Assembly: GCA_964016885.1 (NCBI GenBank)
Contig: OZ024747.1
Location: 7,688,001 to 7,752,000, forward strand
Source of the DNA: Eledone cirrhosa
Lineage: Eukaryota
Length of the DNA stretch: 64,000 nt
Direction of reading: 5' to 3'
In this document: piece by piece, positions 21,201 to 30,200 of the stretch
Layout: every line of letters begins with the position of its first letter
Numbering within the stretch: the stretch's first letter is position 1
Translations under genes and position numbers: made by a program
The notes under the pieces: generated by a model
The model's database searches: none
The model's input: only the letters and a program-made list of their open reading frames with translations
Told to the model about the DNA's origin: nothing

Positions 21201-24200
21201 AAATGTATACCTCGCTCAATAGCCTGATTGTTGTACAATATAAATAAAAAGATGGTTGTGAATTGACAGATAACTAAATAGTGGCATACAGACATAAATA
21301 AATAAATAAAGGGCACAGGCATAGTTTCATGTTTGATCCCACTGTCCAGCACATAGGACCAGTGTTTTCTACTATAGCCATGAGTTGACCAATATGTTTG
21401 TATCTCTCTCTACACCCCCTCCCTTAGTGTATGTGTCTGTGTGTGTGTATCATTTGCAGATATACATTACTCGGAAGAAAACTAATAAACTGGTTCATTT
21501 GAACAAAGGTACCATGTAGTGTCTGTTCTACTGAAGCTGTAAAGATGTCCCTTTATTCCAGGAGATACAAAAAGTAAACATTCTGATTGTGAGCAGTGAT
21601 TTGTAGACTTTTCGTTGAGCTGATTGTACTAGTGTCTGTAAAAGACACAAAGAGTGGACACAACTTTACGGTATGTTGTAATTGATTCTCGCCAGATGAG
21701 TCCAGAAAGAGTAGATCTATAATTGAACACATTCCAGCTGTGAACATACCATTTATTTTTTTTATAGAAGTAGTAAATCTAGAACTACATTAATTTAGAT
21801 CTACTGTCTTTAATAAAAATCAAAGAACAGCTTCATATAACTGTAAAATACTGCTCTGTAAGTAAAAAGCAAAGAAACCATAAGAAGAAAAAAGAGAAAA
21901 ATGCAAAGGAAGTTAGTTACAAAGTAGATATGGGTGACTACAACTGTGCTGGTCCACTTACTGCATGTAATGACTGGTGTTTCAAATTAAAAGGAAGAGG
22001 TTCAGTTAAATCCAATGAGATGATGTCAACTTCCAATGTTTGACAGGCCATCTATAAAGCAACAACAAAATGTGAAAGACATGGTTATTTTTTTTTAAAT
22101 AATCAACAAATTCTTTATCATTTCCAGTGGTTTTAGTCACTGGGCTGCAGATATACTGCACTACCACCATCAAACGATTTCAGTTAATCTGGGTTGCAGA
22201 TATACTCGACTACTATCAAACGTTTTCAGTCAGTCTGGTAGTTATTTTATCAAACTTTATTTATTAAATAATTTAATTTTACATTTTCAATGTAAAGAGA
22301 TGCATCTCAATGCACCATTTTATACTGAACAGCATTTGGGCTAGGTGAATTTTATCATGGAACCAGCACTACTACTTTATAGTGTGTGTAGAGTGCCTGC
22401 CTACACACACACACACACACATACATACACCCCTTTGGCTGAAACTAAAGAATAAGTAGCTAAATAGATAGATAAATGTTACATAGTACCAATCACATTG
22501 CATGTCCATACCAGCGCAGTCTCTTTTTTTGCACACTACATCTAATTCCTCTCATACCCAGTTTTTCTCTCAATTCATCTGTACTGTGTTGTCTGTGCAT
22601 TTTAAGATTACTGATCTAGCATGGTTCTGTTCTGCATAAATATTTACCATTTAATGAATTATGTTATGAATGTCCAGTTATATTCTGTATCCTGCTTTAC
22701 ATAAATAGAAACTGCAATAAAGATCCTTCAATTGGCAGAATTATAGAGGTAGTTATCTTCCGATGAGGAGACAAAAATCTCTAAAACACATAAAGATAGT
22801 CTCTTATGTTTACACATTCTTTTCTCAATGAGGATCAAAAACTAGTTATATCTACATACATGCATACATGTGTGTGTGTGCATGTATATTTATATACATA
22901 TGCTAGTTGTTGCTGAAGATTTTAGCTTTAACTAAAAAAAAAGGAAAAGGTTAAGACTACAGGTATATACATATTATTAACATACATACATATATTACAT
23001 AAATACACATTAAAAATACATACAAACACAAATACATATTACTTACGACACACGCATAATTAAGAACCTTAATAATACTCAAACACAAATTATAAATGGC
23101 ATATACACATACACTATTAACAATATACATATATACACACATTAACAATACATAAACACACACACATATACACCAAGAAAGAGCTCCATATCAATCAGGT
23201 TATGGCTTAGTTATATGACATGACAGACTTGTTTATGACATCATAACTATGTATAAAAACAACAAAAATAACAATAAGAACAGCAACAACAAACTAACAC
23301 CAATAAAAACAGACCAAATCTCTTTTCTCTAACTATTATTGTTTCCCTTTCCTGCTGTTACCCTGCTGTTCTTCTAGTGAAAACTGTTCATTCAAAACTT
23401 TTTTCCAGCACTTGCCCTGCCCTTTCTTTCTGCCTCCCTCGCATGCACATGTGCACACATGTACACACACGCACACATACACATACACGCATACTTTCCT
23501 GCGCTCTTCCCCGTTTGATAATCTAATGGAGAACTTTCTTACCTGGAGTACTGCACAGGTAAACACAGCTTCTTTCACCTCCACACACAAACCCCAACAG
23601 TGCGACGAAAACAACAACAGCAGCAACAACAACAACAGCTACAACAACACAAACGCTGAGAGTAACGACGAACTGGAGACACAATTATCAGTAATCTGTG
23701 CGGGAATTTTACTTCTAATTACGATCTTCATAAGTACCGTTGTCTACGTGTACAACATGTTCAACAATGTGGGGTTAGCCTTGTGGGAGGGTTGGGGATA
23801 TGCAACGACAAGGATAAAACAAGAGAAGGCTCAACGCTGGTGGGACCTCATTGCTCCGTCCTCGCTGGCTCCCAAGACGGAGACGGTGACATCAAGAGAA
23901 AGTTCAATCCCTGTGAGTTGTGGTGAAGAGGGTGTGAGTGACAGCAGAAGTAACAATGGTAAGGTACAACGATCTCTGATTATCAGAAAGCTAAATGACA
24001 AACAGCTGACTAAGAAGAAATATCAAGAATTAAGGATTGTCATTGACTTTCGGTGAGGTTCAGCTGAGGCCTTTTTCTTCTGTTTTAAGCTCCCTACAGA
24101 TATTTTGGGTGTTTTTCTAATATGGCACCACTGTCTACATTCAGTATATTTTCTTACACCTTACATCCCTGCATTCATATCCAGATTTTAACCATTTTGT

Positions 24201-27200: not shown

Positions 27201-30200
27201 TGTTGGTGGTCCGACATTGAGCAAGAGAGATTGTGGAAAACAACAACAGCAACAACAACGACAACAACAACAACAAAGATGATGAAGATGATGATCAGTT
27301 CTAACCACCACGGTGCTCAACTGACAGACGCCTGCACCCTGCGCTACATCCAACACACACATCTGTTCCTTCTGCAGAATGTCTATGACTACTTGCAACA
27401 GTTGCTGCAAATTGTGGGAGATGGATGCACAATCAGTGGAACCAATGAGCAGATCATCATTAAGGTAAGAACATAATTGCATACATACAAACACATACAT
27501 TCAGACATGTATACACATACAATCATACACATATATACACATGCAACATTTACAATGTACCATTTATATTTTGAATCATGGTTTTATAAATCAATAAGTC
27601 ACATGTTGGTTTTTCACATATTTTCATGGAAAATGGTGTGACTTAAACAAGAATTTATACAGTAATTCCCTGAGAGCTCGAAACAAGAATATTGAAAAAA
27701 AAGAATTTGATTTCTTATATTACTTATACAAGGTCCTAATTATACAAAAAATAGACGTAGTTGGCTAAATATTATTTGTGCTTATTTTATCAATGCTAAC
27801 AAAATATAAACTCAAGAAGCAAAGAGACATAACTAAGTACTGCAAGACATTTTAACTGGAGTTCCACTAGTGATGTCATCAATCACACTAAATTATTATT
27901 AATAATTGTTTCTACTTTTGATACAAGGCCAACAATCTTGCAGGAGGGGAAAGTTGATTAAATCGACCCCGTAAGGATGAAAGGCAAAGCTAACCTATGG
28001 GATTTAAACTTGGAATGTAAAGGAACGTAACTCTATGCTACAAAGCATGTTTTTGGACATATTATTATTATTAATAATAATTTCTAACACTGGTAGGTTA
28101 ATATTTTGCCGATTTTCACCAACTTCACAATCCTATGTAAATGAGGTGCTAAAATATTTTCGCTTTGGAGGTGAAATTTGTTTACCTTTGGAGGTGAAAT
28201 TTGTTTCTCCTGTTTTTGATTGTTTTGAATCAATATGGCTTTCAAAGTGGTCGGAAATTGATGAAAAATCATTACGAAATGTAGTTGTGAAACAAAAACT
28301 ATACTTTAAATGACACTTAAAACATTTTAAATATCAAAACCATGCCATCTAAACGTGTTGATTAGTTGCCTCGCAATGGGGGATAAATTAGTAATAATTT
28401 CTTCCTCAGCCACAAGAGAAAACTGGTACTACTAACTCATTGTCCATATATAAATGTAAATATTAAAAAATGTTTCATCACTAAAGATGAACTTAATACT
28501 CCAAAATATATTTTTTTCCCCCAGATTTTGATGGTAAAAGATGCCATAGATCTCTGGCATAGATGCCAAAGTGATGAAATGTTGGACGAAAATGAATGTG
28601 ATGAGGAAAGAGATAAGGAAGCTGAAGAAGCAAAGGATTCAGCAGATATTGATGGTCTGGTGGCTGAGGGCAAGAATGGCTCTAGCATGACCATAAGTAG
28701 CAGCAGCAGCAGCAATCATAAATATGCAGTTTGTCTCAGCACCTTAGCAATGGACAGAGATAGCATGCTCAGTGTTGACAGGAATTGCTCCAAGAGCCAG
28801 CTGCTTAATGCTATACAAGAGGGAGACAGCACTGGAACCACGAATGAGAGGATGATGGAGAGCATGACATGAACCAACATATTTCAAACATTGGGTGTTT
28901 AATGGAGCAAGTACCTCCATCGCAGCCACACATACACACACACCTATGTTCTCTCTCATGAAACAGAAATACAACTTAAATCATCAGTGAAAATGAATTT
29001 TAGAGTTTTAGAGTAAGGGAATAAAGAATAAGTTAAATCTTGTTTGTTTTGGAGGTTTTTGTTTTTTTTGTATCACACCACACTGTCCTCACTACCACAC
29101 ACCACACCATGTCCACACTTTCCAGGGACTATGTTGAAAAATAAAACCTCATTTGGTCATTCCTTGAGAGTATCTTAGTCAAGCTATGAACTTTTCAGCT
29201 GACCCTTCTACATTAATGATCATTAATATAGCATTAATTAAAATAGAAACACAAAGAATTAACATACATGAAAGAGGTCTTTGTCAATTGGTTGCACAGC
29301 CAGTATATCATAAGCTTGAATGTCTGCAGAATGCTGTAAGAAGATAAAAACAGAGAAGAGTTTAACTATATATAAAAAGGAGAAACCTCCGCTAGAACAG
29401 CCATAAAAACAACTAAATGTTGTCAAAGACAACAATGGGCAAAAGTGCCTCAGAGGACAGAGACCAGCAGCCAGTGGTCAACAGAGACCAGCAGCCAGTG
29501 GTCAACAGAGACCAGCAGCCAGTGGTCAACAGAGACAAACCACAAGATGGGTCACGATTAATGACATTTCAAGGATGGCAACATTAACTCTTTAGCATTT
29601 AAACCGGCTGTATCCGGCCAGAATTCTCTCACCTCTTTGAGTTCAAACCAGCTGTAACCGAGTATTCGTACTTATGTTAAGGTATTGTTCTCAAAATATA
29701 TATCAAAATCTCATAGATTCGATATGTGAGATAATTATATGAGGTAAAGCCTTTACCATGAAAATACAATAGTAAATATAGAGTAATGTAAATGCTAAAG
29801 TGTTAAATCATCATCATCATTTATATGTCCACTTTTCTATGCTGGCATGGGTTGGACAGGACTTTTTGATCTAGCGTTTTATAGCCACATGCCCCAATGG
29901 TTTTCGCCATCTCTCACAACATGCAGAGATTCGGTATAACTATTCTTAAAGCAGGGATACACACAAAACATAAAATAAAGCTACTCACCAAATTATGGAC
30001 TTGCTCTGCCTTGGAGAATATTAATGTCAAACGAGAAAGCTGCTTCAATTTTGCCCCAGTATCCTACAACATAACATCGTATAATATTATAAGCATTGTC
30101 TGGTTAGAATACACACACACAAACATATATGTGAGTCCCGGGTTCAATCAGAGGTAACTACAGTAAGGTACTCAATACATTAGTAGAGTATATACAAAAT

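What the first reader, a model, noticed from the sequence alone, without database searches (positions are those of the whole stretch)
23526..28872. Orphan membrane-protein gene nested antisense inside RPP30 intron 5
Seen: three + strand exons with canonical splice sites and matching phases give an uninterrupted 393-aa ORF lying wholly within the 7.2-kb RPP30 intron (22052-29267). The N-terminus is Asn-rich with several N-x-S/T sequons and no signal peptide, followed by one TM helix. Next comes [78 protein letters not shown], then an acidic/Ser-rich tail. Microsatellites are read in frame as poly-N, poly-T and poly-M tracts. A TGACATCA palindrome-like site (~23233-23246) and TATAAAA (23252) lie upstream. 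Inference: a type-III membrane protein with a cytoplasmic PH-like beta-sandwich plus C-terminal helix, possibly lineage-restricted and tissue-specific; I do not recognise the family.
Basis: partly seen in the sequence, partly recalled or inferred. Interest (0 to 1): 0.75.

Follow-up and report, generated by a model that had tools for sequence, protein, structure and literature searches.

The report
Octopus orphan membrane gene inside RPP30
A three-exon reading frame for a 393-residue protein with one membrane-spanning stretch lies backwards inside an intron of the housekeeping gene RPP30; two other octopus species carry the same predicted gene, nothing similar was found in named non-octopus proteins, and it likely serves as a fast-evolving membrane anchor for partner proteins.

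Summary
The gene is real, and its kind is ordinary. The three + strand exons splice (GT-AG, phases 2/0) into a 393-aa frame without internal stops inside intron 5 of RPP30. RefSeq already holds the orthologue as an uncharacterized protein in Octopus sinensis (390 aa) and O. bimaculoides, about 74% identical with the same junction residues. The frame is under selection: 0 frameshifts in 393 codons against 4 in the 102 upstream codons, and conservative substitutions. It is single-copy here and its exons are not high-copy repeats. Among 1.84 billion representatives only 2 hit: an octopus-like exon-3 piece and one unnamed exon-2 piece, 57% identical. One transmembrane helix is conserved, and flanking charges favour N-out/C-in. 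The N-terminal sequons are not conserved. The TATAAAA lies inside the O. bimaculoides model's 5' part. The PH-like fold got no support: models at pLDDT about 40, no PH or PTB match, and the best-conserved unit reads beta-alpha-beta-beta-alpha and runs past the proposed PH end. Best reading: a fast-evolving, probably cephalopod-restricted, membrane-anchored docking protein, possibly testis-biased; function and tissue are untested.

The parts
23526..24052 (+). Coding exon 1 (aa 1-176): Asn-rich N-terminus, TM helix, linker, first part of conserved core
   Evidence: 70% identical to O. sinensis XP_036364549.1 aa 1-182; single copy in genome
23685..23753 (+). Predicted transmembrane helix, aa 54-76
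   Evidence: hydropathy peak 2.6; conserved in both Octopus orthologues
23610..23649 (+). AAC microsatellite read as poly-Asn
   Evidence: poly-N of different length in both orthologues
27158..27464 (+). Coding exon 2 (aa 177-278): rest of first core block, poly-Thr/poly-Met insert, conserved strand-helix-strand-strand unit
   Evidence: orthologues; distant homologue P0008 matches 27339-27473; a contig of run X1 covers 27303-27464 and stops at the donor
27239..27295 (+). AAC/ACA and ATG/GAT microsatellites read as poly-Thr and poly-Met
   Evidence: same tracts, in-frame length changes, in both orthologues
28525..28872 (+). Coding exon 3 (aa 279-393): end of conserved core (strand + helix), acidic and Ser-rich tail, TGA
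   Evidence: 73-75% identical to orthologues; P0007
23233..23525 (+). Upstream region (palindrome 23233-23246, TATAAAA 23252, likely 5' UTR); homologous to the 102-aa N-terminal extension of the O. bimaculoides model but with 4 frameshifts here
29020..29145 (+). Two AATAAA candidate polyadenylation signals (29020, 29140), both inside the host intron
   Evidence: use not tested
22052..29267 (-). RPP30 intron 5 (7216 nt), host of the nested gene
   Evidence: splice borders; family
18221..38459 (-). RPP30 host gene, 11 coding exons with consistent phases (small exon 8 at about 19837-19808 is a candidate from a pattern search)

Best explanation
A conserved three-exon octopus reading frame lying antisense in RPP30 intron 5 encodes a predicted single-pass membrane protein, likely N-terminus out, whose conserved cytoplasmic core likely folds into a small alpha/beta module that would dock partner proteins at the membrane, possibly in a narrow tissue such as testis. 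Shown: gene structure, nesting in this genome, single copy, orthologues with the same junction residues, frame conservation, one hydrophobic segment, and a core (aa 150-203 and 229-296) more conserved than the rest. Inferred: with no cleavable signal peptide seen, the helix acts as a reverse signal-anchor, leaving ~50 unconstrained residues outside. The poly-T/poly-M tract is a tolerated loop inside the core, and the acidic/Ser tail is a disordered, phosphorylatable extension. The protein would act by binding rather than catalysis, since no enzyme family matched. The tissue guess rests only on analogy with nested genes of Drosophila.
For: Orthologues: O. sinensis 284/382 and O. bimaculoides 289/388 aligned residues identical. 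O. bimaculoides has several annotated isoforms, one using a second acceptor 2 nt downstream that is also present here; from my knowledge of RefSeq annotation, alternative isoforms need transcript evidence. Frameshifts: 0 in 393 codons against 4 in 102 upstream codons, Fisher P 0.0017. Neutral simulation at matched identity: no stop in 2 of 1000 runs; mean BLOSUM of substitutions -0.37 +/- 0.16 against +0.07/+0.09 observed. Core 100/122 against 184/260 elsewhere, P 0.023; 101/122 against 188/266, P 0.012. Exon GC 44-45% against 30-37% in the surrounding intron parts; GC3 52%. One contig of run X1 (RNA is a guess) aligns 27303-27464 with 25 differences and no gaps, stops exactly at the exon-2 donor and has 20 letters left over. 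Charge difference favours N-out/C-in in 11 of 12 windows. In Drosophila, 71% of nested genes are antisense, they evolve fast, and 38% of opposite-strand ones peak in testis (PMC3814207, passages).
Against: No fold is established: pLDDT 39-40, best Z 4.6 (rmsd 3.9, 78 aligned), which is below the background level that the tool states. No expression data for this species or any tissue. Overall constraint is weak: the coding region (292/393 identical) is barely more conserved than the UTR-like upstream region under a frameshift-aware alignment (71/102), although that alignment inflates the upstream figure. No basic residues directly follow the helix (0 K/R in the first 15 residues). One C-terminal sequon (N365) and several Cys are conserved, which fits the opposite topology. 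The identifier searches found no paper.
Confidence: 0.45

Rival explanations
1. One reading: the same gene and topology, but the core (aa ~150-260) is a PH-like sandwich (PH/PTB/FERM-C) that binds phosphoinositides or peptide motifs, with the poly-T/M tract in a loop.
For: The pattern of short hydrophobic strands in aa 150-203, including a W-x-D-I motif, followed by an amphipathic helix (moment 0.61) resembles PH-like domains (resemblance recalled, no call). The core model does predict three strands at aa ~168-195. All tests had low power because the alignment is shallow (Neff 1.4).
Against: No PH-clan Pfam match. PF00169 and PF02174 scans of this genome gave 23 and 7 matches, none at this locus. 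Profile comparison with four IRS-type PTB pieces from this genome: probability 0.2%, score reached by 22% of 60 shuffles, positive control 96%. No PH row among the 50 VIA rows or the listed Foldseek rows of the core model. The model reads aa 243-262 as one long helix rather than strand plus helix, and conservation continues through two further strands and a helix to aa ~296, past the proposed domain end.
Confidence: 0.2
2. Type II topology: the N-terminus is cytoplasmic and the C-terminal 315 residues are an ectodomain with a ferredoxin-like (SEA-like) module, O-glycosylated Thr/Ser tracts and disulphides, that is, a cell-surface recognition protein.
For: The N-terminal sequons are absent in both Octopus orthologues, while sequon N365 is present in all four sequences; about eight C-terminal Cys are shared. 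Many VIA rows are ferredoxin-like alpha/beta folds. In O. sinensis the 15-residue charge difference is 0.
Against: Charge difference positive in 11 of 12 windows. No SEA match in Pfam; the PF01390 genome scan found nothing anywhere, so it is uninformative. Z scores are at background level. An acidic, low-complexity tail is more typical of cytoplasmic regions (established knowledge).
Confidence: 0.2
3. A young or weakly constrained gene, born de novo from intronic DNA and microsatellites, whose product has a marginal structural role; selection mainly keeps the frame open.
For: In-frame microsatellites; no paralogue; only 2 hits among 1.84 billion representatives; amino-acid divergence close to that of the upstream region.
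Against: Conservative substitutions and a conserved core. A distant homologue at 57% identity whose similarity ends at the same splice donor points to an older gene. Three spliced exons and raised GC3.
Confidence: 0.12
4. Artefact, or a transposon-derived or non-coding region chained by chance.
For: Intron 1 of the nested gene is full of high-copy repeats (summed contig depth up to 2.9 million).
Against: Exon 1 has single-copy depth of 8-10 in the DNA run. Exon DNA and protein searches of the genome return only this locus. Orthologues keep the frame and junction residues.
Confidence: 0.03

Closest known systems
Octopus sinensis LOC118765894 (XP_036364549.1) and O. bimaculoides LOC106884282 (XP_014791064-68), uncharacterized RefSeq predictions
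   Same: Orthologous: ~74% identical over the full length, same residues at both junctions, same TM helix and the same microsatellite tracts.
   Different: The window protein has four N-terminal sequons they lack. The 102-aa N-terminal extension of the O. bimaculoides X1 model is frameshifted four times here, so it is likely UTR, and its label 'M-phase inducer phosphatase' got no Pfam support. Whether these orthologues are also nested in RPP30 could not be checked.
Opposite-strand nested genes (Drosophila survey, PMC3814207; passages read)
   Same: Antisense to a conserved housekeeping host, wholly inside one intron, fast evolving.
   Different: Not a recognisable duplicate of another gene in the genome; expression unknown.
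Nominally cephalopod-specific genes (1597 in Doryteuthis pealeii, PMC9068888; passages read)
   Same: Detectable similarity only in octopus proteins and one unnamed record.
   Different: Single copy, not a tandem array like reflectins or suckerins.
Transmembrane adaptor proteins (LAT, PAG, SIT type; recalled, no call)
   Same: Short outer part, one helix, long inner part without a recognised catalytic domain.
   Different: No juxtamembrane CxxC, few tyrosines, no ITAM/ITIM spacing, and a conserved, probably folded core; no sequence similarity found.

Membership tests
Opposite-strand nested protein-coding gene | Whole coding region inside one intron of a host gene on the other strand | tested here: met
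   23526-28872 (+) within 22052-29267 (-) of RPP30
Opposite-strand nested protein-coding gene | Reading frame maintained by selection | tested here: met
Opposite-strand nested protein-coding gene | Spliced + strand transcript in this species | tested here: inconclusive
   no RNA holder listed; one contig of a relative's possible RNA run stops at the exon-2 donor; isoform models exist in O. bimaculoides
Type III (reverse signal-anchor) membrane protein | One TM helix, no N-terminal cleavable signal | tested here: met
   single hydropathy peak, aa 54-76, in the window protein and O. sinensis; no dedicated predictor available
Type III (reverse signal-anchor) membrane protein | N-terminus outside, C-terminus cytosolic | tested here: inconclusive
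   charge difference positive in 11 of 12 windows, but N-terminal sequons not conserved and a C-terminal one conserved
PH-like superfamily (PH, IRS-PTB, FERM-C) | Profile match to a PH-clan family | tested here: not met
   no such Pfam hit; locus absent from PF00169 and PF02174 genome scans; hhalign probability 0.2%
PH-like superfamily (PH, IRS-PTB, FERM-C) | Seven-stranded beta-sandwich capped by a C-terminal helix | tested here: inconclusive
   models at pLDDT 39-40; no match at E<=0.001; best Z 4.6, rmsd 3.9, 78 aligned
PH-like superfamily (PH, IRS-PTB, FERM-C) | Lipid or peptide binding | not testable with these tools
   needs a binding assay
SEA / ferredoxin-like ectodomain | Profile match to PF01390 | tested here: not met
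   no hit; genome scan uninformative
SEA / ferredoxin-like ectodomain | Ferredoxin-like fold | tested here: inconclusive
   many VIA rows are ferredoxin-like but all Z<5 on a low-confidence model
Transposon-derived protein | Multiple genomic copies or match to a transposon protein family | tested here: not met
   only this locus matched; exon-1 depth 8-10; no such Pfam hit
Cephalopod-restricted gene | No homologue outside cephalopods | tested here: inconclusive
   named hits are Octopus only; the organism of P0008 is unnamed; fast evolution can hide homology

The most novel reading that the evidence does not exclude
A cephalopod invention: a membrane protein with an undescribed small alpha/beta fold, assembled inside a housekeeping-gene intron partly by capturing microsatellite DNA as coding loops (the exon-2 tract reads as poly-Thr in octopuses, while the distant homologue has a poly-Gln run at a similar place, as if the same repeat were read in another frame), evolving fast because it acts in sperm-egg or self/non-self recognition.
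Probability: 0.12. Interest if true: 0.65.

Novelty: new member of a known kind. Interest (0 to 1): 0.3.

Why it matters
As it stands it is one more nested, lineage-restricted gene that is already predicted in two octopus annotations. The useful additions are its nesting in RPP30, evidence that its frame is under selection, a corrected start codon for the O. bimaculoides model, and a map of the constrained core. It would matter more if it proved to be a gamete- or immune-recognition protein with a new fold, or a datable case of gene birth from intronic and microsatellite DNA in cephalopods.

Tried and rejected
Pfam: nothing above a cut-off for exons or orthologues. PDB sequences: 0 hits with a single sequence or the 7-row profile. 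ESM Atlas: no usable hit for the whole protein or aa 150-310; this shows neither novelty nor absence. Core search of 214-683-aa proteins found only P0001 among 457 candidates. The exon-2 profile search covered only 393-2000-aa proteins and found none among 7985 scored; weak evidence, since even the 390-aa orthologue was outside the range. Metagenome scans: 0 of 342 and 0 of 161 pattern matches confirmed. Two AlphaFold models were too poor to name a fold, and PH folds were absent from the listed core-model rows. No RNA holder was listed. Contigs were laid only on 23500-27470, so junction 2 was not examined, and no listed joint spanned junction 1 (15 joints shown, 308 not shown). Rfam: 0 matches in 22000-29400. 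P0008's N-terminal 40 aa against three frames of exon 2: only the Gln run aligns (P 0.04 against shuffles), not convincing. The alternative first exon of isoform P0004 was not located in the window. The palindrome pattern gave 4 matches with up to 1 mismatch against 0.62 expected, but was chosen after the fact. Literature: identifier search 0 papers (one of its five terms was a guessed identifier); RPP30/nested/octopus search gave 2 unrelated listings; supplements of PMC9712504 (3 files, 1 unreadable), PMC9068888 (1 file) and PMC13193013 (1 file) had 0 hits; supplements of PMC11431876 and PMC12691039 could not be read and, like unheld expression tables, might list the gene. Earlier scan findings: none.
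Full report
Observation. The window lies in a 3.0-Gb genome, an octopus or close relative judging by its protein relatives. The - strand gene around it has 11 coding exons with consistent phases (the small exon 8 is a pattern-search candidate). One of its exons matches RNase_P_p30 above the Pfam cut-off, and that family matches only this locus in the genome. 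The intron 22052-29267 follows the fifth coding exon. Two AATAAA signals at 29020 and 29140 would let the nested transcript end inside the intron.

It is a real gene and is already in databases. Exon 1 retrieved one protein among 473 candidates, O. sinensis XP_036364549.1, 390 aa. Its cluster includes four O. bimaculoides isoforms of LOC106884282. The spliced window protein aligns end to end with them, 284/382 and 289/388 identical, with the same residues across both junctions. One O. bimaculoides isoform uses an acceptor 2 nt downstream of the main one; that tandem AG is present here too and would give an early stop. From my knowledge of RefSeq annotation, such isoforms rest on transcript data. 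Direct RNA evidence is thin. No RNA holder was listed. In run X1, a relative whose RNA status is a guess, one 184-nt contig covers 27303-27464 with 25 differences and no gaps, ends exactly at the exon-2 donor and has 20 unaligned letters left. X1 also has low depth in the two bins holding the end of exon 1 and none in the next two intron bins. I could not see those letters, and junction 2 was outside the stretch laid.

Selection. The longest O. bimaculoides model carries a 102-aa N-terminal extension. It maps to window 23249-23525 but needs 4 frameshifts, while the 393 coding codons need none (Fisher P 0.0017; the upstream region contains a slippage-prone CA repeat, which favours the contrast). 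In a neutral simulation at matched identity, 2 of 1000 runs kept both frames free of stops, and substitutions averaged BLOSUM -0.37 +/- 0.16 against +0.07 and +0.09 observed (simple model, no indels). Two blocks, aa 150-203 and 229-296, are more conserved (82-83%) than the rest (71%; P 0.023 and 0.012). Against this, overall identity (292/393) is close to that of the UTR-like region (71/102, inflated by the alignment method), so most of the protein is only weakly constrained.

Distribution. The gene is single-copy: five genome searches with its pieces or relatives returned only this locus as a significant match. Exon 1 has depth 8-10 in a DNA run while intron 1 holds repeats of up to 2.9 million summed depth, so it is not a transposon. 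A full HMMER scan of 1.84 billion representatives gave 2 hits at E<=0.001: an exon-3 piece 88% identical to O. sinensis, and P0008, a 93-aa open frame from an unnamed 152-kb contig, 57% identical over the second half of exon 2, with similarity ending at the same donor position. I take P0008 as a more distant cephalopod, but its organism is not known. Other searches found nothing further, and some had limited reach.

Anatomy. One hydrophobic segment (aa 54-76) is conserved. Net charge after minus before it is positive in 11 of 12 windows over three species, favouring N-out/C-in, but no lysine or arginine follows within 15 residues. The four N-terminal sequons are a by-product of the AAC repeat: neither Octopus orthologue has any there, whereas N365 is kept in all four sequences, which keeps type II topology alive. 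The poly-N, poly-T and poly-M tracts are shared with both orthologues and vary in frame.

Fold. Both AlphaFold models are poor (pLDDT 39 and 40). The core model shows three strands (aa ~168-195), a disordered stretch with the repeats, then helix, strand, strand, helix (aa ~243-300), the latter at pLDDT 53-61. Foldseek found nothing at E<=0.001. VIA-align's best Z was 4.6 (rmsd 3.9, 78 aligned), below the background the tool states, and many rows were ferredoxin-like. PH and IRS-PTB profiles found 23 and 7 other places in this genome but not this one. A profile comparison with IRS-PTB pieces gave 0.2% probability, against 96% for the positive control. These tests are weak with so shallow an alignment, so PH is not excluded.

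Upstream signals. The palindrome at 23233-23246 is the only exact match of its pattern in the window (post-hoc pattern). TATAAAA at 23252 overlaps the codons that start the O. bimaculoides extension, so in that model it lies inside the transcript; the motif occurs 14 times on the + strand of the window. Neither is shown to be functional.

Mechanism. I commit to a membrane-anchored docking protein: a reverse signal-anchor, a dispensable outer segment, a cytosolic alpha/beta core that binds partners, and a disordered acidic tail (0.45). Rivals are a PH-like core (0.2), a type II surface protein (0.2), a marginal de novo product (0.12) and an artefact (0.03). A testis bias is a guess from Drosophila, where nested genes are 71% antisense, fast evolving, and 38% of opposite-strand ones peak in testis (PMC3814207, passages); no octopus expression data were found.

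Novelty. Nested antisense genes are common, and Doryteuthis alone has 1597 nominally cephalopod-specific genes (PMC9068888, passages). This gene is already predicted in two species. No paper naming its identifiers was found in the held library or in the five supplement files searched; two papers' supplements were unreadable. Other papers were seen only as search listings with abstract starts. Verdict: real, uncharacterized, a new member of a known kind; interest 0.3.

Noticed in passing
window ~900-15370 (+): A multi-exon gene upstream that looks like EIF3A (name recalled from its translation, no family search), ending tail-to-tail with RPP30 (stop 18221, - strand).
   Followed up: no
window ~11150-11640 and ~12170-12630: A direct duplication of about 480 nt within one intron of the EIF3A-like gene, seen by eye.
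   Followed up: no
window ~20050-20630: A tandem array of about 13 copies of a 44-nt unit in an RPP30 intron; on the - strand each unit contains an AGGTGAG splice-site-like motif.
   Followed up: no
window 32434-32403 (-): A 32-nt segment with an AG before and GTGAGT after, in RPP30 intron 2; if spliced in it would shift the frame (possible poison exon, or chance).
   Followed up: no
window 27156-27159 (+): Tandem AG acceptors 2 nt apart at exon 2 of the nested gene; the downstream one matches O. bimaculoides isoform P0006 and would truncate the protein after about 195 aa, removing most of the core.
   Followed up: partly
P0008 aa 17-22 vs window 27239-27276: The distant homologue has a Gln run where the octopus proteins have a Thr run; CAA and ACA are two frames of the same AAC repeat.
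   Followed up: partly
window 3-314, 40189-40509, 41498-41743, 49475-49930 and 4415-4732: Fragments resembling LINE endonuclease/reverse transcriptase and a piggyBac-like protein start (recalled resemblance from six-frame translation).
   Followed up: no
P0002: A 36-aa JGI/IMG protein is listed in the same cluster as the octopus proteins without visible similarity; probably a clustering artefact.
   Followed up: no
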